A stretch of DNA of 64,000 nt from Thermodesulfovibrio sp. (GCA_026982355.1 JALSHG010000046.1:5314-69313); one strand, 5' to 3'; shown: positions 20,301-40,232, numbered from the stretch's first letter. Program-made: numbers and translations. Notes: generated by a model from the sequence alone, not told the origin.

Positions 20301-23300
20301 TGCAAGGGGGTCAATAATAAGCACATCGTTTCCTGCAAAGGGGTTAAGGTCTCCGATAGTGATAAATGTGCCGAAACCCTGTTTCCAGCCGGGATGTGCC
20401 TGGTCGCCTTTGAACATGAAATCCTCAGGGACACCTGAGCGGTCTGTAAGATGGATCGTTCCAGAAGGGAGTGTATCCGAGCCGTAAAAGCCCCACACAC
20501 TGCCCGGAACCTCTGAGCTTATTCTGCCAGGGGCGCCAACCAGTAAATCCTCGTACCCATCGCCATTGATATCACCGGCAGCCAGAGCTGCCCCGAATCT
20601 TGAGAGCACGGTTGAACCGTATATCTTCGCCATTGCACTGTGAGCTTCTCTTACTCCTGTATCAGATACAGGTCTTATTATCCCTGCCGGGAACTGACTG
20701 CCTGAAAAGATGTATACCATCCCTATCCGGGATTCCTGTATCTTTTCAGTAACAGGAGACCCGGACCATCCTCCACCCACTGTATATTCATAATCAAGAA
20801 ACTCTCCAGGACTTCCAAGAATCAACTCCCCTTTTCCATCCCCATCCAGGTCGGTTATCAGCATTGCCTTTCCAACCTCCCATCCGGGTGTAGCATCGTG
20901 ATACGATTCTCCAAACTCTGGACCAAAGACCACCACATACTGTTCTCCATTGTAAGTATATGCATTCAGAACCCTGTCACTTCCGCCGAAATCATTTCTG
21001 CCATAAAAGATAAATGCAGCACCCTTCCTCAGGAAGCTGTCATAACTCCTGTAATATCGGGGGGCGCCAACCACCAGATCATCCAGGCCATCTCCGTTGA
21101 TATCGCCAACGGCTATCCCTTCACCAAGGCCATCCCCCTTATATTCTGTAGTGAATATCCTCTGCCACTCACTCTCGCCCGTTATGACCACACCGTCTAT
21201 AGATGAAGGAATATTATCTACTATAATGTTTTGCGGCAATTCATTATTGCCGAAGATGACATAGACCTTTCCTGACCAGTCTATATCGGGCTGACCGGGG
21301 TTGAAGGGTTGTCGTGGTGCGGAGACGATAATATCCCCGTAATTGTCACCGTTTAGACTGGCCACCGCAACCTGATAGCCCAATTCCCGAAAGTTATCTC
21401 CTCTGATACGAATATCATATTCACCATAGGGGATATCATACCAGCGATTCCACTGTTCCCTCGGGCGTCCATAATAGATATAGGCAGCACCGCCAGTGTG
21501 GCCTTTGGATCCAACATCTTGATGTGTATCTTGAAAAGTGTCGGGATTTAAAAGATGAGAGCCCTCCTCGTTCAGGTCTGTGCTTCCGATGAGTAAGTCA
21601 TTTATGCCATCCCCGTTTATGTCCCCTGTGGCAAGTGAGTTTCCGATACGCTGGCAGAAATTGCTGTCCGGAGAATAGCAGGCTGTATAATCTCCCGAAA
21701 TGACCACATCCCAGTAGATATCCGTGGCATTTATATCCAGGTCCATGTATTGCTGTCCCGTGGGCAGGGAAACCCCCTCTACAGGACCGAAGGCTATATA
21801 TACTGCCCCCATGTACTGCCCCGGTCCGGACTGGTCCTGTGAGACACCTACAATCAGGTCATTGACTCCGTCACCTGTTATGTCACTGACCACTGCAGAT
21901 CTGATGTAACCGTTCGGTTTTCCAAATGCAATCAAGTCCTGGTCCGCCCAGGCGGCACTCTCGACACCCTTAAGGGCAAATTCCCCGGCAAACTGCCCAT
22001 CCCTCCCATAATCAACATCCAGCATGAGACTCACTTTCAGATTTTCACCCTGAAGTCTGCGAAGCTCCTCCGGCACTATGAATGTAAGTCGATCATAGGG
22101 TGCCCCCTGGCCAATCTCTACACCCAAAACAATCTCAACCGGGTGCGTGGGAGACTCTCCTGGATACCAGTCATTGACCCCGAACCTTACAACCATATCC
22201 TCTGGATGAGGGCTGAAGTGATCGCCAATTATTGATACTCTATCGCCTATGTAACCACTTGAGGGAATAATCTTATGAATGACAAGGTCCTTCCATGGAG
22301 GTAATCCGGTGCTTACTGAAGGGCCTTTTCTCCAGTAATCCTGATTGTATGGATCATCACGATCAACCAGTTTAAGTTCCATCCTGCCGGGATCATCAAA
22401 AATGGAGGTGCACTGAGTCACAAATGAGTCCGTATCAAGTTCAGCTATGCAGGTACAATCGACCTCATCACCGTTCCAGTAGACTTTGAACACATCGCCG
22501 CACATGGTACTAAACCCGAGTCCCCAGACATACCATCCACCATAGATATCATGCCAGTACATTCCATCGATAATCGGCGCCTCAATGACCGTGGTCTCGA
22601 AATGCTCGGGATACTCGGGAGGGTCTGCCAGACATTCAGGAGTCATACAGAGTCTGTCAGGGTAGTGATAAGGACCGCAGGAACCCTGGACATCAATACT
22701 GACATCCATCCTGTCCGTGCCTTCAGGCAGATCATAGACCCGGAGTGTGTGGATGTCTGCACCGATATCAGGATTGTCTCCGGTGGTAATATTACTTACA
22801 AGAGAGGTGTTCAAACTTTGAGCGGTTGACGGAACATTTACATCCTCAATGGTTATCCTGCCGACATCTATATCAAGGAGGTCAAGCACCACCCTGCCGA
22901 TTGTAGAAATCCTGCCTATAAATCTATTGAATCCGCCATTAGAAAAATCGGTATAGAGACCGAGTGTGTCCGAGGTGCCGGTAAACAGGATGCGAGGGTC
23001 CACACCTTCATAAGGACCGACCGCATCAATATACCAGCTTGCAGCATCTGCCTGTGTTGGGACAAGATTGAGGATATCCCTGATTATATAGAGTATATCA
23101 AGAACCCCCTCGACAATCTGTCTTGCGGTCTCTAATACAGGCAAAGCAGGCTGACAGACGAAAAAGCAGATCGCCTCGCCTGCTATCAATGCACGATCGA
23201 CCCAGCGCAGGATTCCTATAATATCATTCAGTATTCCGAGGACTTCACCGACATTGCAGATAGCCTCTCCCGTTGTGGAATGGCTTAGAATCTCATTTAT

Positions 23301-24665: not shown

Positions 24666-24729
24666 TTTTACTCCTCACAGCACTGTCTCCTGATGAATTT
24701 CTAAATACTCACAAGTAATTTGCAGTCTT

Positions 24730-25323
24730 TTACTGCTTCTTTCTTTTTCTTAAAAACCCTATTACTGCCAGACCACTTCCCACAAGCAGTAAAGTGCCGG
24801 GCTCAGGAACCACATTGACATTTCCACTCTGCACAGTAGCATAAAGAGGACTTGCCCAGGCATCAGATAGGGAATTGATATAGACATCTAAAGAACTTGA
24901 CCCTAAGGCAAGGGTATCAAAACTAAGGGTTGCAAGGGTAAAACTCCCCGCCTGCCATGTATCCAGATCATAAGGGGAATCAAAAGAAAGCTCAAAGAGA
25001 TTAACATTGCCATATTCGGGAATGGTATTAGTGTAACTTACAAATCCCGATAGGTCCAGCTGGTCTCCAAGTACGGGATCGCCGTAGACTGCACTGTTGA
25101 AAGAAAGCACAGTCGGATCAAAAAGGATATCAAGATCAAACATGCCAAGAGAAGGTGGTGTATAATCTCCCAGCCCCGATATAACAATATCCACAAAGGC
25201 TTGCTCACCTGAGAGCACATCCTGATCTACAGGGTCAAAGCTGATGGTTACAGCATAAGATGAATTGAGGCTGAAAAGCAGCAGCATCGCCGTTGCCGTG
25301 AATAAAAACAATACCTTTTTCAT
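24730..25323 (-). CDS. PEP-CTERM sorting-domain protein (exosortase substrate)
   Basis: MKKVLFLFTATAMLLLF signal peptide; C-terminal VPEPGTLLLVGSGLAVIGFLRKRKKQ = PEP motif + TM helix + basic tail; 64 bp upstream of the giant protein on the same strand. Confidence 0.85.
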   Translation of the reverse strand: MKKVLFLFTATAMLLLFSLNSSYAVTISFDPVDQDVLSGEQAFVDIVISGLGDYTPPSLGMFDLDILFDPTVLSFNSAVYGDPVLGDQLDLSGFVSYTNTIPEYGNVNLFELSFDSPYDLDTWQAGSFTLATLSFDTLALGSSSLDVYINSLSDAWASPLYATVQSGNVNVVPEPGTLLLVGSGLAVIGFLRKRKKQ

Positions 25324-25439
25324 GACCGGATACCCCCCTTTCCTGCTGAAACCGACGGGTATTTCAATCACTCAATGTGGTGTTGGTTATTTTTTACCAT
25401 ACGGGATGTCACAAACAGGTCACAGAAAGCCCCGATATA

Positions 25440-25560: not shown

Positions 25561-28500
25561 TTATTTCATGCTTTCCCTGTAGACCGCCTCGGTCTCGGGT
25601 GAGGGCTTTACGCGAAGGACGCCGGAGAGTGCATTCAGGCAACTGTAATAGGTCTTTTTCACTTCACCGCGGTAGCCCAGGCGGGCGTAACACTTCATGA
25701 GTTGCTGGTACAGCTCCTCTGCAAGCGGATCCACTTCCAGCCCCCTCCTGCAACATTCTATCGCCCTTTTAAATTGACCGTTCTGCCGGAGGTATTCCCC
25801 CGTACCTGCAATATGCCGCAGAAATCTGTTCCTGAGACGTTCCCGCATGGAGAATGTCCAGTGAAACTCCGCATCTTCCCCGAGAAAATCGCCCTTATAC
25901 ATGCACAGGGCCTTCTCGAATAATTCAAACACCTTTCCGGGGCTCTTCGTGCTCCTGACCCTTGTCTCGATCTCCGAGAGGATTCTTTCAAATGCCCATG
26001 CATCCACCCAGCAGTATAGATGGTCCAGGGTCACCTTGCCTTTACCGACACGGATCGCCGCCTCGTTGCCGAGTATCCCGCGCAGCCGCTGGAGCGTGGT
26101 TGTAAAGGCGCTGACAGCGGCATCACCGTATGTATCGGGCCAGAGTGCGTCGATGAGCCTGCCCGTGCCGACCCCTCTGCCGCCGAATGCGATCAAGGCC
26201 TTCAGCAGGGCTACCGGTTTCTGCCGGGCCTTCTTCAGGAAACGCACCGGTCTTCCGTTTACGAGCAGGCCGAACCGGCCGAGGGTGTATATTTTTACAG
26301 GCCAGGGCCAGTCCTCGACATGAAGGGGGGGTGTGTCGGGGATGAGGTTGTGCCTTTTTACAAGATCAATGACATACTCTCTTTCTATTCCGGCCTCCAG
26401 CGCGCCGACACACAGCCGGGCCATCACACGGGGCCGCCAGAAGATGAAATAAACAAGCCCGTGTCTTCTGCCCAGGGCCATCGCCTGCCTGAGAAAACCG
26501 AGGGCGTTGCGTTTTTTCCCTGTGGCAAGCGCAAAATATGCCCCGGACACGAGGCACATATACTCTATCATGAGGCTCTTCATGCCGCGCCCGATCCCGC
26601 ATGCCGTGGAGAGGGCTTCAGCCGCCTCGTGATGTTCGCCGCGCTCAAACAGCACCTGTGCCATTGCATAGCGGATCATGGCCTCCATGAAAGGGAATCC
26701 TGCCGTGACTACAAGGTCAAGGGCTATGCTTATATGTTCAAAGGCATTCAGCAGGTCATGGCGGAGCATGGCCTCCCATGCCAGCAAATACCGGTAGTAT
26801 GCTGTGTTCATGATCTGCGAATCTCCCGCTTTCCCCTCCGCCTCTTCAAACAGCCTCCTTGCCCCCTCCAGGTCGCCGGTACCGAGGCAGCCGGATGCTC
26901 CGTGCATCAGAAGCTGCAGCAACATCGTATCCACACCGCTGCTCCGCACAACGCCGAGTCCCTCGGAAACCGTCTCAAGGCACAGGCTGTGCATGCCCTT
27001 AAGCGAGTAGCACATCGCCTCGAACGCCTTCAATGTTGTAAAGGCCAGGGGTGAGACGCGCCCGTCCCGCGCCAGGCTCCTGAGCGGGGCGATTACCTCT
27101 TCCGCCTTTGAGAACCGGCCCGTCCACTGGTAATACAGCGACACATCAACCTCCGACAATATCCTGAGACCGGGGTCCCTGACCTCACGGCAGGCGGCAA
27201 GAACGCGCTGCGCCCACTCTTCAATTTCAGGATGAGAGGGCTGTCTCATCAGCAGGGATATAAACATGCTGGATATCGCTCGGCTTTTTGTCTCCGTGGA
27301 GGGGAAACGGTGGCCGGAGCGGAAAAGCCCTTCAAGCACGGCTATCCACTTATCAAGCAATTTGAAATCCGCCTGTTCATATAAAACCGCATCAACCGCC
27401 CCGCAGCAGGACATAAACATTCCGCTGACGTCCTCCTGTGCCGCAAATCGCCTGTAGGCCCGATCAAACAGGACGCGGCTCACCGGTGAATCAAAAGGCA
27501 ACTCGCATACGCCAAGCCAGAAAAGGAGCCATGGAGCATTGTCGAGAAACTCTTCCGGAAGGCTCCTGATCCACTGCCCGAGCATCTGGTTTCTGCCCTG
27601 TGCAACAAGCCCCTCCGCATGCTTCATGATGAGATTTGCAAGCCCCCGCCGGTCCCTTGAAACGATGTAGAGGTGGGCCGCTTCCTCCGTCTCTCCGGCA
27701 TCCTCCAGTAGCAGGGCGGCCTTCCGCCTCAATCTGCGGAGTTCTTTGCGGGGATATGCCCTGTACGCACAGGAAAGGAGGAACTCCCTGAAAAGCGGAT
27801 GATATTGATACTTGTCCTCGGCCCCGGGCCGTTTGGCAATGAAATAGTTTCTCTGATACAGGGCCGCGAGTATCCCGGCGGAACGGTCCAGTCCCGTGAG
27901 TTTCATGGTCATATCAGGGTTCATCACGGGAAGCACGGATGTCTTCAGCAGGAACTCCCTGCTCTCCGCATCGGCATCGTCAAATGTTTCATTGGCGAAA
28001 TAGTCGAATATCTCATCATGGGAGGCGCTTTCAGGGTACTGATATTCCCCGCCGCCTGTGTCTCCCCTCTCAAGCATGAGCACAAGCCCGGCCACCCATC
28101 CGGATGACCGGCGGTGGAGAGTTTCAGCCGTTTCCCTTGGGACATCCCTCCTGATACGGATGATGCCCTCTGCCTCGTCAAGGGTGAGCTGCAGGTCTTC
28201 CCATGCAAGGAGGGAAACCATTCCATTGACCCTGAGGCGCACAAGCTCTTTCGGCATGCTGTCACGGCTGATAATTACAACATTGACCCCTTCGGGAATA
28301 CATGAGAGACCCTCTCTCATAACCACGTGCAGTAACGACCGGCGATCCGCCTCGTGATAGTTGTCAAGCACTATCACAAACGGCTGCCCAAGCCTGCTGA
28401 AAAGCTCCCCGAAGTACCGCCTTGTGAAAGCGGGGATGGATTTCCGGTATTCCGGCGTCAGAACGGGCAGGGGCTGCCGCCTCCGGGGACGGGCTTTCTT

Positions 28501-28758
28501 TGCCGCCAGCCCCATGTAATAAAAGAATGTGGCTGTATCGGAATCATGCTCATCAACCTGATACCACAGGCATGGAAGTCTCCTGGAATCTATATAACTG
28601 TTGAGGAGAGTGGTCTTCCCCGAACCCGGAGGACCCGTTATCCAGATGACAGGCCTGTTGCGTTTGCCGTCAAGCAGGCGGAACAACCTCTCGCGATTCA
28701 GCACTTCCGCATAAACGGGGCGTGTTATCTTTGCCGGATATACTGATTTGCCCTTCAT
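25561..28758 (-). CDS. large STAND-type ATPase transcriptional regulator: N-terminal P-loop NTPase (MalT/NB-ARC-like) + TPR-like helical region + C-terminal SARP (winged-helix + BTAD) domain
   Basis: Start assigned to MKGKSVYPAKI (ATG 28758), since the upstream in-frame extension is low-complexity. Walker A VIWITGPPGSGKTTLL, Walker B FVIVLDNYHE. C-terminal KIYTLGRFGLLVNGRPVRFLKKARQKPVALLKALIAFGGRGVGTGRLIDALWPD (OmpR/SARP wHTH) followed by a BTAD helical domain (LYCWVDAWAFE...). Confidence 0.75.
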   Translation of the reverse strand: MKGKSVYPAKITRPVYAEVLNRERLFRLLDGKRNRPVIWITGPPGSGKTTLLNSYIDSRRLPCLWYQVDEHDSDTATFFYYMGLAAKKARPRRRQPLPVLTPEYRKSIPAFTRRYFGELFSRLGQPFVIVLDNYHEADRRSLLHVVMREGLSCIPEGVNVVIISRDSMPKELVRLRVNGMVSLLAWEDLQLTLDEAEGIIRIRRDVPRETAETLHRRSSGWVAGLVLMLERGDTGGGEYQYPESASHDEIFDYFANETFDDADAESREFLLKTSVLPVMNPDMTMKLTGLDRSAGILAALYQRNYFIAKRPGAEDKYQYHPLFREFLLSCAYRAYPRKELRRLRRKAALLLEDAGETEEAAHLYIVSRDRRGLANLIMKHAEGLVAQGRNQMLGQWIRSLPEEFLDNAPWLLFWLGVCELPFDSPVSRVLFDRAYRRFAAQEDVSGMFMSCCGAVDAVLYEQADFKLLDKWIAVLEGLFRSGHRFPSTETKSRAISSMFISLLMRQPSHPEIEEWAQRVLAACREVRDPGLRILSEVDVSLYYQWTGRFSKAEEVIAPLRSLARDGRVSPLAFTTLKAFEAMCYSLKGMHSLCLETVSEGLGVVRSSGVDTMLLQLLMHGASGCLGTGDLEGARRLFEEAEGKAGDSQIMNTAYYRYLLAWEAMLRHDLLNAFEHISIALDLVVTAGFPFMEAMIRYAMAQVLFERGEHHEAAEALSTACGIGRGMKSLMIEYMCLVSGAYFALATGKKRNALGFLRQAMALGRRHGLVYFIFWRPRVMARLCVGALEAGIEREYVIDLVKRHNLIPDTPPLHVEDWPWPVKIYTLGRFGLLVNGRPVRFLKKARQKPVALLKALIAFGGRGVGTGRLIDALWPDTYGDAAVSAFTTTLQRLRGILGNEAAIRVGKGKVTLDHLYCWVDAWAFERILSEIETRVRSTKSPGKVFELFEKALCMYKGDFLGEDAEFHWTFSMRERLRNRFLRHIAGTGEYLRQNGQFKRAIECCRRGLEVDPLAEELYQQLMKCYARLGYRGEVKKTYYSCLNALSGVLRVKPSPETEAVYRESMK

Positions 28759-28796
28759 GATCTTGCGCTCCCGCCCGCCTGTCTTATGGGCGACAT

Positions 28797-28898
28797 TAAG
28801 TGTAACCTTACAGCGGCATAAAACCACCGCCCGCGGGCAGGAGAGTCCGGAGGTTTTACGCCGGACTCCCCTGCCGGCTTGTGCGACATCAGGGTTAA
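28797..28898 (-). repeat. MITE/REP-like element, short form, inverted orientation (copy e)
   Basis: taaccTTACAGcgGCATAAAAcCACCgcccgcgGGCAGGAGAGTCCGGaggttttacgCCGGACTCcCCTGCCGGCTTgTGCgACatcagggTTAAG; in the divergent promoter region between the regulator and the kinase/pyrophosphorylase gene. Confidence 0.8.
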
Positions 28899-28942: not shown

Positions 28943-31900
28943 ATGTCCAACGTGCTTGTCGAAACAATAGTGAGCGAAGATGAAGCCGTCCGCCATCGCT
29001 CCATTGACTCCCTCCTGCACGACAAAGACAGGGGACAGATACTGAAACTCGCCGGTGAGCTGGAAGCCTTCCGCACATCCTCCGACAATCTCTACCACAA
29101 AGTCAGGGCATCCCTGTTCCTGTTTGCAATCTACAGGTTTCACCTCATGAGAGACCGGAAGACACCCGGGCAGGGGAAAATCCCGTCTGACGGGGTGAAG
29201 GCCGCATTTGCGAGGGATTTCGAAAAATCCATTGCCGTATACTTGAGAGAGATTAATGACAAAGGTGTCCGGAACCGCACCGTGTTCAGCGCGGTCGCGG
29301 ATGCGTACTATAAGCTTTCCTTCAAGTATCTGATCGATCAGGTGAAGCTGTCGATAAGCCGGCGCAGGGAGAATCATCACCTCTACAACATCGACAGCCC
29401 GGATGAATATCCGTTCTCCGTGCCTGCCGTGATGACGGCTCCCGACCCCGTAACCGGCCTGTATCCCGTGGGTATGGATGCATCACCCGTGAGGCTCGAC
29501 CCCTCACACAGCGGGTGGTCGGATATATTTTTTCTCGGTATGGATTTCCCGGAAGGCGCCAGGGTTGTCAATTTGTCGGTTGACCTGAGAATCCACGGCG
29601 GCAATGAGCCGCTGAGGCCGCCGTGTGAATGCTGGTGCCGTTTTATACGGGAGCCGGTCATACATCTGGTCTCCACGGACCTGAGGGCATCCAAGAAGAT
29701 ACACACGCTGCGGGAGCTGTTCAATTTCGGCAATGACCATCTCTCCCTGCTCAAGGCCGGTGTCGTGGCCTCAGGGATCATTCCCCCATGCTTTGAGAAC
29801 AGGGATATCCGGCTGCAGGACATTCTGAAAAGGCTGACCGGCGAAACAGGAGGGATTCAGATAGTCACGAGGGTGAACGGCATACCCAAGGGCTCCAGGC
29901 TTGCGGTAAGCACAACCCTCCTGGCGGCCATCATAACACAGTTGATGAGATTCAGCGGCCAGATAAGAAACCTGACCGGTCCCCTGCAGGAAGAGGACAG
30001 GCGTATTGTGGCCTCAAGGGCGATCCTCGGGGAATGGCTCGGGGGCTCCGGCGGGGGATGGCAGGATTCGGGCGGGCTCTGGCCGGGCATAAAGCTGATT
30101 ACGGGCGTTGCCGCTGCCGAAGGTGATCCCGAGTTCGGCGTAAGCCGGGGCTGCCTGCTGCCCCGGCATCATGTTTTCACCGAAGAAGATATTCCGCCCG
30201 GGGTGGAAAAAAAGATAGTCGACTCCATGGTGCTCGTGCACGGCGGAATATCACAGGATGTGGGGCCGATACTCGAAATGGTCACGGAAAAGTATCTCCT
30301 GAAATATGAAAGGCAGTGGCAGGCCAGGTTGAAGGGAATCAGCCTGTTCGATGAAATAGTCGATGCACTGAAGGCCGGCGACATGAGGGAACTCGGCAGG
30401 CTAACGACAGAGGACTGGGAAGAGGCCATACAGCCCGTCGTTCCATGGGTGAACAATGCATTCACCGAAGACCTGATAAACAGGCTCGGGCATGAATTCA
30501 GGGGTGATTACCTCGGTTTCCTGATGCTCGGCGGAATGTCCGGGGGAGGCATGGCGTTTATAGTCAACCCCGGGGTACGGGATGTATTCAAAAAAAGGGC
30601 CGGTGAGATAATGAACGATCTGAAAGCGGTATACAGCTCTTCATATCCCTTTATTATTGATCCGGTTGTGTATGACTTTGCGATTAATCACGAGGGCATC
30701 ACGGCCGGGCTCTTCACCGGGGGCCTCGCAAAGATGCCAGTTATGCCCCCGGCGCCTGCGGGGGTGATCAATTTAAACACAAGAGAAGGCCCGGGCGAGG
30801 AAGAAATCAGGGAAAAGTACGGCTTCGACCCAGCTTCGCACGAGCACATGAAGGCCATGCTTAAAAGGGGAGAGATCGGGCTTGCAAAAAACCGGCTGCC
30901 GCGGACCGCGGTGATAGAGGATGTCCGGTATGGAGACATACTGCATTTTGAAGATGATGAGGACGCCCTCTCATCCGGCGCACCTTCCGCTTTCCGGCGG
31001 TTTCATGAAGCCGGAATGGAGGCCTTAAGGAAACGCGAGGCCGCGGTGGTCACATTCGCAGGGGGCATGGGAAGCCGGTGGTCCCGCGGGGCGGCGGTTG
31101 TCAAACCCGTTAACCCCTTCGTGAAAATGGACGGAAGATACAGGACGTTTATTGAGATACACCTTGCCAAGAGCAAGCGGACCGGGATGCTGTCGGGCCA
31201 TGAGATACAGCATGTGTTCACCACAAGTTACCTGACCCACCACGCCATTGCCCGGTACCTCCGGAGCTTTTCATATTTCGGATGTGCCGGCCGCATCCAC
31301 CTGTCCCCCTCAAAGACCATCGGCCGCAGGGTCTATCCCATGGAGAGGGACCTGAGATTTCACTGGGAGGGTCAGCTCCGCCAGAAGCTGGATGACAACG
31401 CACAGAAGGTGCTGGATGATACTCATGCCGCGCTGATTGAGTGGGCGAAACAAAGGGGGGAGGGCGAAGACTACAGCGAAAACAGCCCCATACTCAGGTT
31501 TAATCCCCCGGGACACTGGTATGAAATCCCCAACATGTTGAAAAACGGAGTCCTCGCGCGCATGATAAGGGACAATCCCGGTCTGAAATATCTTCTATGC
31601 CACAACATCGATACACTGGGGGCGTATATTGAACCTGTGCTGCTGGGCATGCACATTGCCGGGGAGCAGTGTATTACATTCGAAGTAACCCCGAGACGCA
31701 TTGAAGACACGGGCGGAGGTCTCGCCCGGGTGGACGGGCACATCCGGCTCGTGGAGGGGACGGCGCTGCCCCGGGAGGAAGACGAATTTGAATTAAGTTA
31801 TTATAATACACTTACAAACTGGATAACCGTCGACTCCCTGCTGGAGTTCTTCGGTATTGACAGGGATACCCTTCTTGACGGCAACAGGCGGGATGAGATA

Positions 31901-32170
31901 CTCGATGCGGTCCGGGGGGTTGAGAGAAGAATCCCGACGTACGTGACCATCAAGGATGTGAAATATGTCTGGGGAAGCGGCCAGGAGGATGTATATCCGG
32001 TGGCGCAGTTTGAAAAGCTCTGGGGCGACATGAGCGGGCTGAAGGACCTGAAGGCCGCTTACGTCGCGGTTTCAAGGCACAGGGGGATGCAGTTGAAAGA
32101 GCCTTCGCTGCTTGATATGTGGGCAAATGACGGCTCATTTGAATATGTGAAGAACAGGGCGAGTTTTTAA
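28943..32170 (+). CDS. fusion protein: N-terminal unknown domain + GHMP-family sugar kinase-like domain + C-terminal UDPGP-family (UGPase/UAP-like) sugar-1-phosphate nucleotidyltransferase domain
   Basis: GHMP motif IPKGSRLAVSTTLLAAIITQ (P-x-GS-x-L-x-S-[ST] ATP loop) and GHMP C-terminal glycine motif GFLMLGGMSGGGMAFIV. Downstream, AGGMGSRW (cf. UDPGP LAGGxGTRLG) and CHNIDTLGA (cf. UDPGP N(I/S)DNLGA) motifs. 1075 aa single ORF. Confidence 0.55.
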   Translation: MSNVLVETIVSEDEAVRHRSIDSLLHDKDRGQILKLAGELEAFRTSSDNLYHKVRASLFLFAIYRFHLMRDRKTPGQGKIPSDGVKAAFARDFEKSIAVYLREINDKGVRNRTVFSAVADAYYKLSFKYLIDQVKLSISRRRENHHLYNIDSPDEYPFSVPAVMTAPDPVTGLYPVGMDASPVRLDPSHSGWSDIFFLGMDFPEGARVVNLSVDLRIHGGNEPLRPPCECWCRFIREPVIHLVSTDLRASKKIHTLRELFNFGNDHLSLLKAGVVASGIIPPCFENRDIRLQDILKRLTGETGGIQIVTRVNGIPKGSRLAVSTTLLAAIITQLMRFSGQIRNLTGPLQEEDRRIVASRAILGEWLGGSGGGWQDSGGLWPGIKLITGVAAAEGDPEFGVSRGCLLPRHHVFTEEDIPPGVEKKIVDSMVLVHGGISQDVGPILEMVTEKYLLKYERQWQARLKGISLFDEIVDALKAGDMRELGRLTTEDWEEAIQPVVPWVNNAFTEDLINRLGHEFRGDYLGFLMLGGMSGGGMAFIVNPGVRDVFKKRAGEIMNDLKAVYSSSYPFIIDPVVYDFAINHEGITAGLFTGGLAKMPVMPPAPAGVINLNTREGPGEEEIREKYGFDPASHEHMKAMLKRGEIGLAKNRLPRTAVIEDVRYGDILHFEDDEDALSSGAPSAFRRFHEAGMEALRKREAAVVTFAGGMGSRWSRGAAVVKPVNPFVKMDGRYRTFIEIHLAKSKRTGMLSGHEIQHVFTTSYLTHHAIARYLRSFSYFGCAGRIHLSPSKTIGRRVYPMERDLRFHWEGQLRQKLDDNAQKVLDDTHAALIEWAKQRGEGEDYSENSPILRFNPPGHWYEIPNMLKNGVLARMIRDNPGLKYLLCHNIDTLGAYIEPVLLGMHIAGEQCITFEVTPRRIEDTGGGLARVDGHIRLVEGTALPREEDEFELSYYNTLTNWITVDSLLEFFGIDRDTLLDGNRRDEILDAVRGVERRIPTYVTIKDVKYVWGSGQEDVYPVAQFEKLWGDMSGLKDLKAAYVAVSRHRGMQLKEPSLLDMWANDGSFEYVKNRASF

Positions 32171-32417
32171 TTTTATGCCACTGTAAGGTAAACCTTAATG
32201 TTGCATAAGCAGGCAGGAGAGTCCGCCGTAAAACCTTTATAAAGCGATGGGATATTGGAAAGATGTCCCTGTTGCAGGACGTAACGGAGAGTGAAATTCC
32301 AAAAGACGTTGATATGCCCTGCGGGATATGTCCTGGATGTATCGCAGATAAAGCTTTTCCTCCGGACTCTCCTGCCCGCAGGCGGTGTTTTTATGCAACT
32401 GTAAGGTAAACTTAACG
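32171..32417 (+). repeat. MITE-like element, long form (copy f, about 220 bp) preceded by a 24-bp right-end fragment of a second copy
   Basis: ttTTATGCCACTGTAAGGTAAAcc (orphan right end) then TTAATGTTGCATAAGCAGGCAGGAGAGTCCGCCGTAAAACCTTTATAAAGCGATGGGATATTGG...ATCGCAGATAAAGCTTTTCCTCCGGACTCTCCTGCCCGCAGGCGGTGTTTTTATGCAACTGTAAGGTAAACTTAACG; same ends as the short form plus an internal module of about 140 bp. Confidence 0.85.
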
Positions 32418-32454
32418 ATGCCGCTTTAAGATTGATACAATTTCAGGGGTGCTC

Positions 32455-33486
32455 ATGAATAATAAGAAAAAAGCCGCACTTATAAAAGGAGACGACAGGA
32501 AGGAGAACATCAAAAAATGCCTCTCCCTGATCCGTGAAGACCTCGGGCCGGTGAAAAACGCCGGAAACATCCTCATCAAACCCAATCTCGTGGCGCTTAA
32601 ACCCTGGTTTGCCAACACCCACGTGGAGGCTGTAGAGGCCGTTATTGAATTTATAAGGGACATGGCTCCGGACACGCCCATAGTGGTGGGTGAAAGCTCC
32701 GCGTCCGCTTTTTACAGGGGACTTCCGACGACAAAGGTGTTTGAGGATTACGGCTATTACGGGCTTGAGAAAAAATACGCCAATGTTTCACTCACCCACT
32801 TTGACGATGACAGGGAATACATAAACATACCCATCCTCTCGGTGGTCGGCGATACGCACATGAGGCTGTCCGGGCGCATAACGGAATTCGATTACAAAAT
32901 ATCTCTCGCCATCCCCAAGACGCACAATTTCGCTGTCGCCACGTTCGGGATAAAAAACATGGCCGGCCTTGTGCTGAGGCAGGACATGGCGATGATCCAC
33001 GGCATGAAAGGCGGCATCGAGGTCGACGCCCCCAAGACCTTCATCGACAGGCTGCCCGCCGGGACAGTGTCGATGGCAAGGAGGGCGCTTCCGAACCGGC
33101 TCATCAATTTCCTGTTCAGGCAGTATCCGGCGTACCGCAAGAGTGTGAAAATGATCCACAGGAATATCGTGGGGTTTGCAAAGAAGGCATGGCCCGACCT
33201 CGTTATACTCGACGGCTTTGTCTGCATGGAGGGTGACGGCCCTGTGGACGGTACCGCCGTTGAAATGAAAACAGCCATAGCCTCCGCGGACCCTGTCAAG
33301 GCTGACGGGATCGGCGCGCGCCTGATCGGATTCGAGCCCGAAGACATAGGTTACCTGTACTACCTGCAGAACGAGGAACACATGGGGGAGTATTCCCTGG
33401 ACAACCTGGCGGGGGATGACCTTGACAGTATAAAAAGAAGATTCAGACGCCACGGCACATATGACATACAGAGTCAGTGGAAGTAA
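32455..33486 (+). CDS. DUF362 domain-containing protein
   Basis: 344 aa; ILIKPNLV and DUF362-like core; AGGGGTG RBS before the ATG at 32455 (a GTG at 32449 is also in frame). Confidence 0.6.
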   Translation: MNNKKKAALIKGDDRKENIKKCLSLIREDLGPVKNAGNILIKPNLVALKPWFANTHVEAVEAVIEFIRDMAPDTPIVVGESSASAFYRGLPTTKVFEDYGYYGLEKKYANVSLTHFDDDREYINIPILSVVGDTHMRLSGRITEFDYKISLAIPKTHNFAVATFGIKNMAGLVLRQDMAMIHGMKGGIEVDAPKTFIDRLPAGTVSMARRALPNRLINFLFRQYPAYRKSVKMIHRNIVGFAKKAWPDLVILDGFVCMEGDGPVDGTAVEMKTAIASADPVKADGIGARLIGFEPEDIGYLYYLQNEEHMGEYSLDNLAGDDLDSIKRRFRRHGTYDIQSQWK

Positions 33487-33489
33487 AAC

Positions 33490-33525
33490 CCCATGTGGCA
33501 TAAACGGGCACAGGAGTCCGCCGGC
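33490..33525 (+). repeat. MITE-like element, left-arm remnant (copy g)
   Basis: atGTgGCATAAACgGGCAcAGGAGTCCGCCGG with no matching right arm; in the 87-bp gap before the methyltransferase gene. Confidence 0.55.
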
Positions 33526-33573
33526 TGGATGCCGCGCCACCGCAGGGAAAAACCTGCGGGGTGCTTTAGTGAA

Positions 33574-34236
33574 ATGAAACGCATACCCGAGCATGATTTA
33601 ATGAACGACAGGGCGCAGGCCGAGGCATATGCAGCGGCTGATTTCTCGGAGCCCCACGATGCGTTCGTCTCGCATTTCATGTCGAGGTTCCCGGACTTCT
33701 CAGGCGGCGAGGTGCTGGACCTCGGATGCGGGACAGCCGATGTCATCATACGTTTTGCAAACGCCTTTCCCGGCGCGCGCATAACAGGCGTTGACGGAGC
33801 GCAGGCCATGCTTGACATAGGAATGCGCGATGTGGAAAAAAGAGGTCTCTCACATCAGATCAGACTCAATCTGTGCCGTCTGCCCGACGATGAATTATCA
33901 TCAAAAAAATACGACGCCGTGATATCCAACAGCCTCCTGCATCACCTCTGTGACCCGTTGATACTGTGGGGGGCGGTCGCGGCATGCGCGCGGCACCGCG
34001 CGCCGGTCTTTATAATGGACCTGATGCGTCCGGACAGCCGCCGGAATGCGGAGGAAATGGTCCGGCTCTATGCAGCGGACGCCCCGTCCGTCCTGCAAAA
34101 AGACTTTTACAATTCACTGCTGGCCGCATATACTATAGAGGAGATCCGGCGGCAGTTAAGCCGCGCCGGACTCGATTATCTGACCGTTGAAGCGGTAAGC
34201 GACCGGCATGTGCTGGTATGGGGCGACAAGTCATGA
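33574..34236 (+). CDS. class I SAM-dependent methyltransferase
   Basis: Start at MKRIPEHDLMND (33574), because the upstream part of the six-frame ORF overlaps the repeat. Motif I VLDLGCGTADVII, motif post-I ITGVDGAQAML. Confidence 0.7.
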   Translation: MKRIPEHDLMNDRAQAEAYAAADFSEPHDAFVSHFMSRFPDFSGGEVLDLGCGTADVIIRFANAFPGARITGVDGAQAMLDIGMRDVEKRGLSHQIRLNLCRLPDDELSSKKYDAVISNSLLHHLCDPLILWGAVAACARHRAPVFIMDLMRPDSRRNAEEMVRLYAADAPSVLQKDFYNSLLAAYTIEEIRRQLSRAGLDYLTVEAVSDRHVLVWGDKS

Positions 34237-35045
34237 AAGACGCTGAAAGCAGATTCCTGGGTACCGCATTCAGGGCTGCAATGCTTGCAGGGGATATCAT
34301 CCTTGAAAATCTCGGCAAAATATCAAAGGAGGATATCGACACGAAACAGGCATCCGATTTTGTCACACATGTCGACAGGGAATCGGAGCGTACCATCCTG
34401 TCGGTCATTAAGAAGGAATTTCCCGGGCACCATTTCCTGGCCGAAGAGTCCGTTAAAGATGCGACCGCGGGGGAATACAGGTGGATAATAGACCCGCTTG
34501 ACGGTACCACGAATTTTATTCACGGTTATCCCGCCTTTGCCGTCTCAATAGCCCTTGAATTCAGGGGAGAGATAATCACGGGGCTTGTCTTCGACCCCTT
34601 GCGAAAAGAGGTCTTTACAGCGGAAAAAGGCGCCGGCGCATTTCTGAACGGCCGGCCGGTCAGTGTGTCCGCAATCAGCGAACTGAAACACGGCCTGATT
34701 GCAACAGGCTTCCCTTTCCGCAAAAAAGAGAGGATAGACGAATATCTCAGGCTCTTCAGGAATATCTTTCACAGGGTCAGCGACATCAGGAGGGCCGGGT
34801 CGGCGGCCCTTGACCTCGCCCACCTCGCCTGCGGGAGATGCGACGGTTTCTTTGAAATAGGGCTGAGCCCCTGGGACGTGGCGGCCGGAAGCATCCTGAT
34901 AAAAGAGGCTGGCGGCATTATCACTGATTTCGGAGGGGGCGGGGACTATCTCCTGACAGGCAACATAGTCGGCGGTACCCCGGAGGTTCACGGGAAGATA
35001 CTGGAAGAAGTGCAGGATGTTTTCAGGGGAGTGATTGATAAATGA
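34233..35045 (+). CDS. inositol monophosphatase family protein (SuhB/IMPase-like)
   Basis: ATGA overlap with the methyltransferase stop; metal-binding motifs HFLAEES, WIIDPLDGTTNFIHG, GSAALDLA, WDVAAG. Confidence 0.85.
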   Translation: MKDAESRFLGTAFRAAMLAGDIILENLGKISKEDIDTKQASDFVTHVDRESERTILSVIKKEFPGHHFLAEESVKDATAGEYRWIIDPLDGTTNFIHGYPAFAVSIALEFRGEIITGLVFDPLRKEVFTAEKGAGAFLNGRPVSVSAISELKHGLIATGFPFRKKERIDEYLRLFRNIFHRVSDIRRAGSAALDLAHLACGRCDGFFEIGLSPWDVAAGSILIKEAGGIITDFGGGGDYLLTGNIVGGTPEVHGKILEEVQDVFRGVIDK

Positions 35046-36090: not shown

Positions 36091-37329
36091 TCAGAAAAAC
36101 GTTACATTTCCCTCTTCTTCTGCAGGGCCCGTCCCATGGGGACCGCAACCACCGGTCGCTGATATGTCAAGTGCCTCCCGAGCCATTTTCCTTTCATGTT
36201 CCATAGTATAAAGAGCTTTAAGCTCCCTGAATATCTCATCTTTTATTCCGATCTGGTTCAAATTATACTCTATCTTTTCCGAGCCGAGCAAGGCATCAAT
36301 ATCTTCTCTGATTCTGCTTATCGCCTCAATTATATGCGATGTCATCTGTTTTGTTATATCTTCAAACTGCATATTAAACGTTATCTCCTTGATTTCTTCT
36401 TTGATTTTGTCCACTGACTGCATTGACGAACCGGTGATATCATTGAATTTTAATGTTGACTCTTTTATGGCATCAAAAACCGTTGCTACTATATTCTGGA
36501 CATCCCTTATCTTCATCTCCTCACTGCTTGCTGTATTCCTGATTTGATCGCCGATCCGGACAACATATTCATTAAGACCCTTGATCTCTTTTTTTATTAC
36601 AGAGGCCTGTTCTGCGGATTTTGCGGCAAGTTTTCTGACCTCGTCAGCAACTATTGCGAATCCTGCACCATATTCACCGGCTCTCGCTGCCTCAATGGAT
36701 GCATTAAGCGCAAGCAGGTTTGTCTGATCTGCGATCTCCGCAACATTATCAGAAAACGGAAGTATGTTGTCCAATACATTATCCATATTTTCAGCATATT
36801 CAGCAGCACTCTTGTATCTTTCAACGCTAACCAACAGTCTCTGCACGGTATCAGTTCCCAATGCCGTGACTTTTTCGAGAACTTTAGGCATATCCGGACA
36901 AATATTCTCCTGTTTCAGGCAGGACTGCAGATCTCTCTTGCAGTTCTCCAGGGCAGATCCTTCAATCGATTGAAGAGAAATGCACATCTTGAATATGGAC
37001 GCCCTGTTAAGGTTCTTAATTTCCTCGATTTGATGTACCAGGTCTGAAAAGCTCCTGACCACCTGTACCGACGACCCTTCTATCCTGTTGCTGGCGCTTA
37101 CAAGCTGACTTTCAACAACAGAAAGAATTTCTTTCGACGTCAAGGCATTTTTCTGAAATGATACGATCAGCTCTGCAATCCCTTTGATATGTTGTCTCTG
37201 TGCCTCACGGTATTCCATGAATTCGTCATTCAGACGCAACTTGTCGTTTCTGCACTTTCTCCATGCAACAACAGCGATTGTAAGCACAGCAATCAGGAAA
37301 ATGTTTATTATCCACAAATAAATATTCAC
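36091..37329 (-). CDS. methyl-accepting chemotaxis protein (membrane-anchored)
   Basis: N-terminal TM helix; signalling-domain signature [37 protein letters not shown]; last gene of the che operon (ATGA overlap with cheA). Confidence 0.9.
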   Translation of the reverse strand: MNIYLWIINIFLIAVLTIAVVAWRKCRNDKLRLNDEFMEYREAQRQHIKGIAELIVSFQKNALTSKEILSVVESQLVSASNRIEGSSVQVVRSFSDLVHQIEEIKNLNRASIFKMCISLQSIEGSALENCKRDLQSCLKQENICPDMPKVLEKVTALGTDTVQRLLVSVERYKSAAEYAENMDNVLDNILPFSDNVAEIADQTNLLALNASIEAARAGEYGAGFAIVADEVRKLAAKSAEQASVIKKEIKGLNEYVVRIGDQIRNTASSEEMKIRDVQNIVATVFDAIKESTLKFNDITGSSMQSVDKIKEEIKEITFNMQFEDITKQMTSHIIEAISRIREDIDALLGSEKIEYNLNQIGIKDEIFRELKALYTMEHERKMAREALDISATGGCGPHGTGPAEEEGNVTFF

Positions 37330-40214: not shown

Positions 40215-40232
40215 GGCTTTTCCCCCTTGCAA

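What the first reader, a model, noticed from the sequence alone, without database searches (positions are those of the whole stretch)
28943..32170. Unusual fusion of a GHMP-type sugar kinase with a UDPGP-type sugar-1-phosphate nucleotidyltransferase (one-polypeptide NDP-sugar salvage enzyme)
The N-terminal two-thirds carries both GHMP kinase glycine-rich motifs: the ATP loop IPKGSRLAVSTTLLAA and the C-terminal GFLMLGGMSGGGMAFIV. It follows an additional ~270-aa N-terminal domain of unknown function. The C-terminal ~420 aa carries UDPGP-family motifs (AGGMGSRW, CHNIDTLGA). The best-known kinase/pyrophosphorylase fusions (Fkp/FKGP, L-fucose salvage) have the opposite domain order and a different pyrophosphorylase fold. 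This arrangement suggests an uncharacterised salvage route producing an NDP-sugar (UDP-/GDP-hexose or hexosamine), plausibly feeding glycosylation of the neighbouring surface proteins.
Basis: partly seen in the sequence, partly recalled or inferred. Interest (0 to 1): 0.65.

Follow-up and report, generated by a model that had tools for sequence, protein, structure and literature searches.

The report
Fused sugar kinase and UDP-sugar pyrophosphorylase
This gene encodes one long protein that joins a fucokinase-like sugar kinase to a UDP-glucose-pyrophosphorylase-like enzyme; the fusion is real, strongly conserved in hundreds of environmental bacteria from at least nine phyla, and apparently never studied, so it probably makes an activated (UDP-linked) sugar whose identity is still unknown.

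Summary
Window 28943-32170 (+) is one intact 1075-aa ORF.

It has three modules:
- a helical N-terminal domain (aa 1-170) with no sequence or fold relative in the PDB;
- a GHMP-fold kinase (aa 176-591) whose only sequence-detectable solved relative is the fucokinase half of Bacteroides FKP. All FKP catalytic and sugar-contact residues are kept, but the phosphate loop is an invariant GSRLAVST;
- after a disordered linker, a PF01704 (UDPGP) nucleotidyltransferase (aa 619-1075) closest to eukaryote-type UDP-glucose pyrophosphorylases.

It is not an assembly artefact. Collinear full-length homologues occur in at least 590 species-level genomes of at least nine phyla. A circularly permuted version exists in Omnitrophota.

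The gene is not rare. Databases label it "UTP--glucose-1-phosphate uridylyltransferase". I found no paper describing it.

Outside Nitrospirota it is almost always translationally coupled to a GalU-like nucleotidyltransferase. In the window's Nitrospirota clade it is followed by DUF362, a methyltransferase and an IMPase-family gene.

Most likely mechanism: sugar + ATP gives sugar-1-P, then UTP gives UDP-sugar. The sugar is unidentified.

The proposed link to glycosylation of neighbouring surface proteins is unsupported. Novelty: a new variant of a known kind.

The parts
28943..32170 (+). Complete gene for the 1075-aa three-domain protein (stop codon 32168-32170).
   Evidence: ORF list and translation. 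An identical protein is called on independent ENA, Logan, NCBI and JGI assemblies. Collinear with 80 of 80 fetched homologues.
28943..29452 (+). N-terminal all-helical domain (aa 1-170), specific to this family. It always precedes the kinase domain, even in the permuted Omnitrophota form.
   Evidence: AF2 secondary structure. No Pfam or NCBIfam hit. No meaningful PDB sequence hit. No Foldseek PDB match: best E 0.73, TM<0.3. Permutation in P0323.
29468..30715 (+). GHMP-fold, FKP-type anomeric sugar kinase domain (aa 176-591).
   Evidence: NCBIfam PRK13412 positions 612-934, E=4e-22. PDB 9iip/5yys E~1e-12. Foldseek 9iip TM 0.85 and WcbL TM 0.83.
29492..29545 (+). R184...D201 (VRLDPSHSGWSDIFFLGMD). 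Equivalent to FKP R592 (stabilises the leaving group), W599 and D601 (sugar contacts).
   Evidence: Residue-level HMMER alignment. Residue roles from PMC11982464. Invariant in 77 homologues.
29882..29917 (+). Phosphate-binding loop IPKGSRLAVSTT (aa 314-325). Compared with FKP 712-AGSGLGTSS-720: G715 becomes R319, G717 becomes A321, and the Mg-ligand S719 is kept as S323.
   Evidence: Invariant in the core family. Divergent members have GSGLAVST.
30032..30067 (+). E364...GGGWQD375. Equivalent to FKP E751, Q761 and the general base D762.
   Evidence: Invariant.
30515..30565 (+). GHMP motif III, GFLMLGGMSGGGMAFIV (aa 525-541).
   Evidence: Aligned to FKP LPGAGGGGYLYMV. Conserved.
30716..30796 (+). 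Poorly conserved, low-confidence interdomain linker (aa 592-618).
   Evidence: pLDDT<50 at 605-615. 18-23% identity to homologues over this stretch.
30797..32167 (+). UDPGP-family (PF01704) sugar-1-phosphate nucleotidyltransferase domain (aa 619-1075), closest to eukaryote-type UDP-glucose pyrophosphorylases.
   Evidence: Pfam E=3.8e-11. Family profile against PDB: UGPases 3e-16 to 1e-12, UAPs 1e-6 or weaker. Foldseek UAP/AGX/UGPase E 1e-15 to 1e-13.
31055..31081 (+). Nucleotide-binding loop FAGGMGSRW (aa 705-713). Aligns with UGPase LNGGLGT.
   Evidence: Alignment. G708, G710, R712 and W713 are invariant.
31511..31624 (+). GHWYE (aa 857-861) and HNIDTLGA (aa 887-894). They align with UGPase PPGHGD and N-x-D-N-L-GA.
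   Evidence: Alignment. G857, H858, W859, E861, N888 and D890 are invariant.
32075..32101 (+). SRHRGMQLKE (aa 1045-1053) with invariant R1047 and K1052, the proposed catalytic lysine. Only 23 residues follow it, so the C-terminal beta-helix domain of eukaryotic UGPases/UAPs appears to be absent.
   Evidence: Invariance. The equivalence to the UGPase 'PRSRFLPVK' lysine comes from my memory of that motif, not from a tool alignment, so it is an inference.
32455..33486 (+). DUF362 gene. It lies immediately downstream of the fusion gene in 14 of 15 Nitrospirota-clade loci and is a possible operon partner.
   Evidence: Pfam PF04015 E=1.6e-36. Synteny counts.
33493..34236 (+). Class I SAM-dependent methyltransferase gene at position +2 (in 9 loci of the Nitrospirota clade).
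34218..35045 (+). IMPase/SuhB-family phosphatase gene at position +3 (in 8 loci of the Nitrospirota clade). The same family is fused to a divergent member of the kinase-UDPGP family (P0253).
   Evidence: Pfam Inositol_P E=1.9e-68. NCBIfam NF008027 5e-79, below cut-off. Synteny. Fusion in P0253.
25561..28758 (-). Divergently transcribed STAND-type regulator (AAA_16, MalT-like TPR, BTAD). A neighbour in this window only, not conserved with the family.
   Evidence: Not recovered as a recurrent neighbour.

Best explanation
The gene encodes a bifunctional nucleotide-sugar enzyme.

Step 1 (inferred from conserved residues). The FKP-type GHMP domain binds a monosaccharide and MgATP and phosphorylates the anomeric hydroxyl:
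- D375 acts as general base.
- R184, the GSRLAVST loop and S323-bound Mg2+ stabilise the transferred phosphate.
- W192, D194 and Q374 hold the sugar.

Step 2 (inferred). The sugar-1-phosphate is taken by the UGPase-type domain about 30 residues downstream and reacts with UTP to give UDP-sugar plus PPi. The residues involved are the nucleotide loop G707-G708-x-G710-x-R712, H858, D890 and K1052.

The helical N-domain is a family-specific accessory module that travels with the kinase. Its role (scaffold, oligomerisation or regulation) is unknown.

The sugar cannot be named from sequence:
- The kinase pocket looks FKP-like.
- The transferase, and the GalU-like partner found in other phyla, look UDP-glucose-pyrophosphorylase-like. 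A neutral hexose or 6-deoxyhexose is therefore the best guess.

In most phyla the enzyme works as a two-gene module with a GalU-like nucleotidyltransferase. In the window's Nitrospirota clade that partner is not adjacent. The gene instead heads a DUF362-methyltransferase-IMPase cluster.
For: Intact ORF.

Domain identification by four independent methods: Pfam and NCBIfam, PDB sequence search, the AF2 model, and Foldseek.

Every residue shown by mutagenesis or structure to matter in FKP is present and invariant across 77 homologues from many phyla. These are R592, W599, D601, E751, Q761, D762 and S719 (PMC11982464; conservation). Most are also kept in 33-45%-identical outliers.

The UGPase motifs align and are invariant.

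The two modules are kept together in at least 590 species genomes, in a circularly permuted Omnitrophota protein and in a eukaryote homologue. This argues for functional coupling.

All recurrent or fused partners belong to sugar or nucleotide-sugar metabolism:
- GalU-like nucleotidyltransferase
- ROK kinase and IMPase fusions
- a protein containing a UDP-Glc/GDP-Man dehydrogenase module
- FBPase_2 and Nudix neighbours
Against: - No biochemical data exist for any member. I found none in seven literature searches.
- The phosphate loop departs from the GHMP consensus (G to R319, G to A321). Pfam's GHMP_kinases_N model does not match.
- Pfam UDPGP covers only the central third of the model.
- The catalytic-lysine assignment (K1052) is by motif resemblance only.
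- A second, GalU-like nucleotidyltransferase is coupled to the gene in most phyla. A simple kinase-plus-transferase salvage model does not explain this.
- The extreme conservation (mean 66% identity between phyla) is unusual for a salvage enzyme.
Confidence: 0.6

Rival explanations
1. Heptose-pathway logic (HddA/WcbL-GmhB-HddC type). The kinase domain phosphorylates C1 of a sugar that already carries a phosphate, for example a hexose-6-phosphate made by a ROK kinase. An IMPase- or FBPase-type bisphosphatase then removes the distal phosphate. The UDPGP domain activates the resulting sugar-1-phosphate. This would be an ATP-driven, mutase-independent route from sugar-6-P to UDP-sugar.
For: - The heptose-7-phosphate kinase WcbL is nearly as good a structural match as FKP (TM 0.83 against 0.85).
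- An IMPase-family gene sits at +3 in 8 loci of the Nitrospirota clade, including the window.
- A 2318-aa relative fuses ROK, the whole kinase-UDPGP unit and an IMPase-family domain.
- Another relative fuses ROK.
- A permuted Omnitrophota member has an FBPase_2 neighbour.
Against: - No phosphatase is a conserved neighbour in the main, multi-phylum clade.
- By sequence, only FKP (a free-sugar kinase) is detectable, and FKP's sugar-contact residues are kept.
- The members fused to ROK/IMPase are the divergent ones that lack W192 and R319.
- SuhB-type IMPases are common housekeeping genes, so the adjacency may be lineage synteny.
Confidence: 0.15
2. Three-activity exchange module. The fused enzyme makes UDP-sugar X from sugar X. 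The GalU-like partner runs the UDP-glucose/glucose-1-P reaction in the opposite direction and recycles UTP and PPi. Together with an epimerase encoded elsewhere, kinase plus two pyrophosphorylases would replace a GalT-type uridylyltransferase (an Isselbacher-type, Leloir-like catabolic route).
For: - A GalU-type gene lies immediately upstream, mostly with a 4-nt overlap, in 61 of the 66 loci outside the Nitrospirota clade: 54 by clustering plus 7 found only in six-frame translations.
- Its best solved relatives are bacterial GalU/YngB UGPases (E 4e-20). GalU-type motifs are kept.
- One protein (P0304) appears to fuse it to the N-domain and kinase.
- Both transferases look UGPase-like.
Against: - The partner is absent next to the gene in all 14 Nitrospirota-clade loci and from the whole 64-kb window.
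- No epimerase is a conserved neighbour.
- The direction of flux cannot be inferred from sequence.
Confidence: 0.15
3. Only one half is catalytic. The protein is essentially a UDP-sugar pyrophosphorylase whose kinase-like domain, with a non-canonical phosphate loop, has become a sugar- or nucleotide-sensing regulatory domain (or the reverse).
For: - Pfam does not detect GHMP_kinases_N.
- GHMP_kinases_C is below threshold.
- Two of the three loop glycines are replaced, GSGLGTSS to GSRLAVST.
Against: - The general base, the Arg, the Glu, the Mg-binding Ser, motif III and the sugar-contact residues are all invariant across phyla. There are 122 invariant positions in the kinase domain.
- More divergent members still have GSG in the loop. 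The Arg is therefore a clade-specific change on an otherwise intact site.
Confidence: 0.1
4. Artefact: two adjacent genes joined by mis-assembly or a sequencing error.
For: The roughly 27-residue linker is poorly conserved and disordered.
Against: - The same uninterrupted architecture occurs in at least 590 genomes of many phyla.
- The identical protein appears in independent assemblies.
- 240 full-length database relatives were listed.
Confidence: 0.01

Closest known systems
Bacteroides fragilis FKP (L-fucokinase/GDP-L-fucose pyrophosphorylase; PDB 5YYS, 9IIP, 9IIT) and plant/mammalian FKGP/FCSK
   Same: A single polypeptide that couples an anomeric sugar kinase to a sugar-1-P nucleotidyltransferase. 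The kinase domains are homologous (E~1e-12; Foldseek TM 0.85). They share the catalytic Arg, Glu and Asp, the Mg-binding Ser and the Trp/Asp/Gln sugar contacts.
   Different: - Opposite domain order.
- The transferase is PF01704 (UGPase type), not the PF07959 + beta-helix GFPP domain.
- The expected nucleotide is UTP rather than GTP.
- The phosphate loop is GSRLAVST.
- There is an extra 170-aa helical N-domain.
- The score on the FKP equivalog model is 78 bits against a cut-off of 721.
Eukaryote-type UDP-glucose pyrophosphorylase (UGPase-A), UDP-GlcNAc pyrophosphorylase (UAP/AGX) and UDP-sugar pyrophosphorylase (USP), all Pfam PF01704
   Same: Same family by Pfam threshold and by fold. The nucleotide loop, the GH motif, the N-x-D-x-L-G-A motif and the GGG motif align.
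   Different: - Fused behind a kinase.
- The central motifs are altered: GHWYE for GHGD, DRGGGLA for VKGGT, YYNxxTxW for FNTNNLW.
- The C-terminal beta-helix domain appears to be missing (inference).
- USP itself was not among the sequence hits.
Two-enzyme salvage in plants and trypanosomatids: separate GHMP sugar-1-kinases (GalK, GlcAK, AraK, GalAK) plus USP
   Same: Same predicted chemistry and the same two superfamilies: GHMP kinase, then a PF01704 transferase (established pathway; reviewed in PMC6329318).
   Different: Those are separate proteins, and their kinases belong to the galactokinase/glucuronokinase branches. Here the kinase belongs to the fucokinase branch and is covalently fused.
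Zebrafish/Xenopus GKUP (glucuronokinase/putative UDP-GlcA pyrophosphorylase; PMC3938481)
   Same: A natural fusion of a GHMP sugar-1-kinase with a nucleotidyltransferase aimed at a UDP-sugar.
   Different: GKUP has a short bacterial-type NTP_transferase at the N-terminus and the kinase at the C-terminus. It has no PF01704 domain.
GDP-D-glycero-alpha-D-manno-heptose pathway (HddA/WcbL kinase, GmhB phosphatase, HddC transferase)
   Same: WcbL is a close structural match to the kinase domain (TM 0.83). The combination kinase + phosphatase + short NTP_transferase resembles the partners seen around this family.
   Different: Separate proteins, a HAD phosphatase, a GDP product, and no PF01704 domain. 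No sequence-level hit to WcbL.

Membership tests
GHMP kinase superfamily | Two-lobed GHMP fold | tested here: met
   AF2 model (pLDDT 85) matches the FKP kinase part (TM 0.85) and WcbL (TM 0.83).
GHMP kinase superfamily | Motif II phosphate loop, P-x-x-x-G-L-x-S-S-A (Gly-rich) | tested here: inconclusive
   The loop is present at the aligned position but reads P-K-G-S-R-L-A-V-S-T-T. Two FKP glycines are replaced (G715 to R319, G717 to A321). The Mg-ligand Ser is kept. Pfam GHMP_kinases_N is not detected.
GHMP kinase superfamily | Motif III (Gly-rich, C-terminal lobe) and the Pfam GHMP_kinases_C match | tested here: inconclusive
   The motif GGMSGGGM aligns with FKP GAGGGGY. PF08544 scores only 12.3 bits against a cut-off of 21.
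Anomeric sugar kinases of the fucokinase/HddA branch (COG2605) | Catalytic Arg (FKP R592), general base Asp in GGGWQD (D762) and Glu (E751) | tested here: met
   R184, D375 and E364 are aligned and invariant in 77 homologues.
Bifunctional FKP (NCBIfam PRK13412 equivalog) | Whole-protein score above the curated cut-off, and an N-terminal GFPP domain (PF07959) followed by the fucokinase | tested here: not met
   77.7 bits against a cut-off of 721. Only model positions 612-934 match. No PF07959 hit. The domain order is reversed.
UDPGP family (Pfam PF01704) | Score above Pfam's gathering threshold | tested here: met
   42.8 bits against 22, E=3.8e-11, although only model positions 156-282 of 413 are covered. 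The fold matches UAP/AGX/UGPase over about 450 columns.
UDPGP family (Pfam PF01704) | Nucleotide-binding loop G-G-x-G-T/S-x, His of the GH motif, Asp of N-x-D-x-L-G | tested here: met
   AGGMGSRW, GHWYE and HNIDTLGA align to UGPase motifs and are invariant.
UDPGP family (Pfam PF01704) | Catalytic lysine following the central domain | tested here: inconclusive
   K1052 is invariant in an R-x-x-Q-L-K motif. No tool alignment reached this region. The equivalence rests on my recollection of the UGPase PRSRFLPVK motif.
UDP-glucose pyrophosphorylase (EC 2.7.7.9) specifically, the name given by NCBI | Specific use of glucose-1-phosphate and UTP | not testable with these tools
   UGPases are the best sequence relatives. 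The sugar-contacting motifs differ (KGGT becomes RGGGL, NTNN becomes NxLT). Substrate must be measured.
UDP-sugar pyrophosphorylase (USP) | Broad sugar-1-P specificity and USP-type sequence | tested here: not met
   No USP chain appears among PDB sequence hits at E<=0.01 with the family profile. Specificity itself is not testable here.

The most novel reading that the evidence does not exclude
The family, with its GalU-like or IMPase-type partners, could be a previously unrecognised and widespread route to a UDP-sugar in environmental bacteria of at least nine phyla. Two forms are possible:
- an ATP-driven, phosphomutase-independent path: sugar-6-P to sugar-1,6-bisP to sugar-1-P to UDP-sugar;
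- a kinase plus two-pyrophosphorylase replacement of the GalT step.

The route might produce a UDP-sugar not yet known in bacteria. The family-specific N-domain and the invariant Arg in the phosphate loop would be the adaptations for it.
Probability: 0.2. Interest if true: 0.75.

Novelty: new variant of a known kind. Interest (0 to 1): 0.5.

Why it matters
Kinase-pyrophosphorylase fusions such as FKP are the workhorses of chemo-enzymatic nucleotide-sugar synthesis. They also define how cells reuse free sugars.

This combination has not been described: a fucokinase-type kinase first, a eukaryote-type UGPase-family transferase second, and a new helical domain in front. It is nevertheless present and very strongly conserved in hundreds of genomes:
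- Nitrospirota
- Acidobacteriota
- Chloroflexota
- Bacteroidota
- Planctomycetota
- Verrucomicrobiota
- Armatimonadota
- Eremiobacterota
- Omnitrophota

All of these are currently mislabelled as plain UDP-glucose pyrophosphorylase.

Identifying its sugar would correct a widespread annotation. It would add a step to carbohydrate metabolism in poorly studied, environmentally dominant phyla. It might also give a one-protein catalyst for making a UDP-sugar from a free sugar.

Tried and rejected
1. Assembly or frameshift artefact. Rejected.

2. Link to neighbouring surface-protein glycosylation. Rejected. The upstream neighbours are not conserved, and no glycosyltransferase was found among the window ORFs scanned.

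3. Peptidoglycan-sugar recycling analogy (AmgK/MurU), with the partner acting as MurU. Not supported. The partner's solved relatives are GalU/YngB and RmlA, with no MurU hit.

4. A conserved epimerase or glycosyltransferase partner. One contig (L094) shows epimerase, GalU-like gene, fusion gene and a GT1 glycosyltransferase. Neither the epimerase nor the GT has a homologue near the gene in the 80 loci.

5. N-domain identity. Pfam, NCBIfam, a PDB sequence profile and Foldseek on a separate AF2 model all gave nothing. The haemagglutinin hits at E>0.05 are chance.

7. Seven literature searches found no description of the architecture. No paper in the library contains both 'UDPGP' and 'GHMP'. One search was badly designed and uninformative. 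The FKP phylogeny paper (PMC12732313) does not mention it.

8. Apparent stand-alone kinase or transferase 'representatives' turned out, where checked, to be contig-end fragments or products of frameshift-rich assemblies.

The orientation of R319 and the distance between the two active sites could not be examined.

Full report
**1. The observation**

Window 28943-32170 (+) is a single ATG-initiated ORF of 1075 codons.

The minus-strand ORF that overlaps the start in the mechanical list is, in the public gene call, a regulator ending at 28758. The two genes are therefore divergent, with a 184-bp spacer.

**2. Domain identities**

- Pfam reports UDPGP (PF01704): E=3.8e-11, 42.8 bits against a cut-off of 22, aa 847-969. 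It gives only a sub-threshold GHMP_kinases_C hit.
- NCBIfam matches aa 179-541 to positions 612-934 of the bifunctional fucokinase/fucose-1-P guanylyltransferase model. This is the kinase half only (E=4e-22), and the score is far below the equivalog cut-off.
- Against PDB sequences, the kinase region hits only Bacteroides FKP (E~1e-12). The C-terminal region hits eukaryote-type UGPases.
- Family profiles sharpen this. The UDPGP profile finds UGPases at 3e-16 to 1e-12 and UDP-GlcNAc pyrophosphorylases only at 1e-6 or weaker. The N-terminal/kinase profile still finds only FKP.

An AlphaFold2 model built on 77 sequences (pLDDT 85.1, pTM 0.85) shows:
- a helical domain, aa 1-165;
- a GHMP-like alpha/beta region, aa 176-591;
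- a disordered stretch around aa 605-615;
- a nucleotidyltransferase-like region, aa 619-1075.

Foldseek against the PDB gives:
- the FKP fucokinase part: E 4.7e-19, TM 0.85;
- the heptokinase WcbL: TM 0.83;
- UAP/AGX: E~1e-15;
- UGPases: E~1e-13.

The N-domain was modelled on its own (pLDDT 84.8). It has no significant structural match (best E 0.73, TM<0.3).

**3. Catalytic residues**

The FKP structure paper (PMC11982464) assigns these roles:
- D762 is the general base.
- R592 and Mg2+ stabilise the leaving group.
- E751 is essential.
- The loop 712-720 (AGSGLGTSS) binds the triphosphate, and S719 binds the metal.
- W599, D601, T602 and Q761 contact the sugar.

In the HMMER alignment these correspond to D375, R184, E364, K316-GSRLAVST-T324 (S323 kept), W192, D194, I195 and Q374.

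All of these are invariant in 77 full-length homologues spanning many phyla. The kinase domain has 122 invariant positions.

The one striking departure is in the phosphate loop: G715 becomes R319 and G717 becomes A321. More divergent relatives (33-45% identity) keep GSGLAVST and lack W192. They retain R184, D194, S323, GGGWQD and the transferase motifs.

In the transferase half, several motifs align with UGPase motifs and are invariant:
- AGGxGSRW aligns with LNGGLGT.
- PxGHWYE aligns with PPGHGD.
- HNIDTLGA aligns with NxDNLGA.
- DRGGGLA aligns with VKGGT.

An invariant R-x-x-Q-L-K1052 near the C-terminus resembles the UGPase catalytic-lysine motif. That resemblance is from my memory and is not tool-verified. 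Only 23 residues follow K1052, so the C-terminal beta-helix domain of eukaryotic enzymes seems to be missing.

**4. Distribution**

The first search of the 5.8-billion-protein collection returned 8000 hits. The best 120 were almost all full length, 62-81% identical over 95-100% of the query and 1017-1157 aa long. They came mostly from Nitrospirota MAGs.

A scan of one genome per species found at least 590 genomes encoding relatives. The 80 best are collinear over aa 1-1075. They come from:
- Nitrospirota
- Acidobacteriota
- Chloroflexota
- Bacteroidota, including Ignavibacteria and Rhodothermales
- Planctomycetota
- Verrucomicrobiota
- Armatimonadota
- Eremiobacterota

Omnitrophota, Thermodesulfobacteriota and the oxymonad eukaryote Blattamonas nauphoetae also carry members.

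There are two clades. The Nitrospirota clade, which includes the window, is 62-87% identical to the query. A multi-phylum clade is 46-50% identical to the query but 66% identical on average (minimum 56%) within itself, across phyla. That level is unusually high. It means either very strong constraint or lateral spread.

Sources name the protein 'UTP--glucose-1-phosphate uridylyltransferase' (NCBI), or 'UDP-N-acetylglucosamine pyrophosphorylase/galactokinase/mevalonate kinase-like predicted kinase' or 'hypothetical protein' (JGI). The two-domain nature is therefore visible to pipelines. No dedicated family model or paper was found.

**5. Architecture variants**

Among 50%-identity representatives there were 2309 hits at E<=1e-3 and 324 at E<=1e-30. 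Many are fragments.
- P0323 (Ca. Kaelpia imicola, Omnitrophota) is circularly permuted: UDPGP at 118-487, then the N-domain at 564-834, then the kinase at 908-1216.
- P0253 (2318 aa) carries ROK, the whole unit, and an IMPase-family domain.
- P0259/P0391 (about 3000 aa) carry the unit plus ROK.
- P0304 appears to fuse the GalU-like partner to the N-domain and kinase.
- P0251 (Omnitrophota) overlaps by 4 nt a 1857-aa protein that contains a UDP-Glc/GDP-Man dehydrogenase module.

The N-domain always stays directly in front of the kinase.

**6. Gene neighbourhood**

I clustered neighbours in the 80 loci plus the window.
- A gene of about 288 aa lies immediately upstream on the same strand in 54 loci. 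Most show a 4-nt overlap.
- A six-frame HMM search raises this to 61 of the 66 loci outside the Nitrospirota clade.
- This gene is a divergent GalU-type NTP_transferase: PF00483 5e-11; TIGR01099 5e-26, below cut-off; best PDB relatives YngB/GalU at 4e-20. GalU-type motifs such as VEKP are kept.
- It is absent next to the gene in all Nitrospirota-clade loci and from the whole window.

In the Nitrospirota clade the gene is instead followed by DUF362 (14 of 15 loci), a class I methyltransferase (9 loci) and an IMPase/SuhB-family gene (8 loci). The window has the same arrangement at 32455-35045.

Upstream genes vary. In the window they are a MalT/BTAD-type STAND regulator, a PEP-CTERM protein and a 2432-aa PKD/FG-GAP protein. 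No glycosyltransferase was found among the window ORFs I scanned. The rest of the scanned window holds enolase, CTP synthase, KdsB, a PilY1-like protein and a chemotaxis cluster.

**7. Interpretation**

- Shown: the ORF, the three-module anatomy, the homologies, the conservation of catalytic residues, the distribution and the synteny.
- Inferred: that both active sites work, that the kinase phosphorylates the anomeric carbon, that the nucleotide is UTP, and that the product of the first site feeds the second.

The most likely mechanism is sugar + ATP to sugar-1-P, followed by UTP-dependent formation of a UDP-sugar.

The sugar cannot be named. The kinase pocket is FKP-like. Both the fused transferase and the partner are UGPase-like.

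Three observations show that a simple 'salvage' label is incomplete:
- the coupled second transferase;
- the recurrent ROK, IMPase and FBPase associations;
- the very high conservation.

Two more elaborate schemes remain open and are given as rivals: a heptose-pathway-like bisphosphate route, and a two-pyrophosphorylase GalT bypass.

**8. Comparison with known systems and novelty**

It works like FKP, and like the plant/trypanosomatid pair of a sugar-1-kinase plus USP. It is not a member of the FKP family: the equivalog score is not met, there is no GFPP domain, and the order is reversed. Calling it a UDP-glucose pyrophosphorylase is untested.

The zebrafish GKUP fusion has the other order and a short NTP_transferase.

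I classify it as a new variant of a known kind. It is a real, widespread, uncharacterised domain combination. It is not a new principle.

Interest is moderate. A nucleotide-sugar specialist would want to know the substrate and why a second transferase is coupled, but would not be astonished by a kinase-pyrophosphorylase fusion.

Noticed in passing
window 28795-28874, 32172-32226, 32356-32420; also 11556-11593 and 53780-53792: A short composite repeat flanks the fusion gene. GCAGGAGAGTCCG or its complement occurs 7 times in the window (0.07 expected) and forms hairpins at 11556-11593 and 28837-28874. The motif CTGTAAGGTWAMM occurs only three times, all next to these arms. A roughly 65-nt unit (CCGGACTCTCCTGCCCGCRGGCGGTGKTTTTATGCNNCTGTAAGGT...) lies in inverted orientation upstream of the regulator gene and directly upstream of the DUF362 gene. 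It may be REP/MITE-like, a terminator or an operator.
   Followed up: partly
L015-L080 (e.g. L046 7127-7998; L083 9144-10001), not in the window: Outside Nitrospirota the fusion gene is almost always preceded by a translationally coupled (ATGA overlap), divergent GalU-type nucleotidyltransferase of about 288 aa. Its N-terminal motif reads AAGRNQRALP instead of GxGTR. It forms an uncharacterised two-gene module.
   Followed up: partly
P0323 / L086 8001-11741 (Ca. Kaelpia imicola, Omnitrophota): A circularly permuted form of the family (UDPGP first, then N-domain and kinase). It sits in a run of very large unannotated proteins, together with Nudix-, NAGPA-like- and FBPase_2-containing proteins.
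   Followed up: partly
P0253 (2318 aa), P0259/P0391 (2939/3096 aa; L085 10001-18820): Giant proteins embed the whole kinase-UDPGP unit together with ROK-family kinase domains and, in P0253, an IMPase-family domain. The neighbour of P0259 is a 7976-aa protein with HAD and Glycoamylase (PF10091) domains.
   Followed up: partly
P0265 = KAK2962578.1, Blattamonas nauphoetae (oxymonad): A eukaryotic homologue (1292 aa) of this otherwise bacterial family, presumably acquired laterally. Its nucleotide-binding loop is degenerate (ASRVCSGW).
   Followed up: no
L015-L080 versus each other: Members from different phyla (Acidobacteriota, Chloroflexota, Bacteroidota, Planctomycetota, Verrucomicrobiota and others) are on average 66% identical (minimum 56%) over about 1100 aa. 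This is unusually high for cross-phylum orthologues and suggests strong constraint or lateral transfer.
   Followed up: no
window 17367-25371 (-): A 2432-aa protein with PKD, FG-GAP, ASH and HYDIN-like Ig domains, next to a roughly 200-aa PEP-CTERM (exosortase-sorted) protein. They are not syntenic with the fusion gene elsewhere.
   Followed up: partly
window 36091-48736 (-): A large chemotaxis cluster: MCPs, a CheA with two Hpt matches, CheR, CheB, a HEAT-repeat protein, and a 677-aa protein with four CheW domains plus a chemoreceptor zinc-binding (CZB) domain.
   Followed up: no
window aa 195-199 of the fusion protein (29525-29539): The invariant IFFLG stretch, right after the sugar-contacting W192/D194, is the lowest-confidence part of the kinase domain in the AF2 model (pLDDT<50). 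It may be a conserved mobile lid over the sugar site.
   Followed up: no
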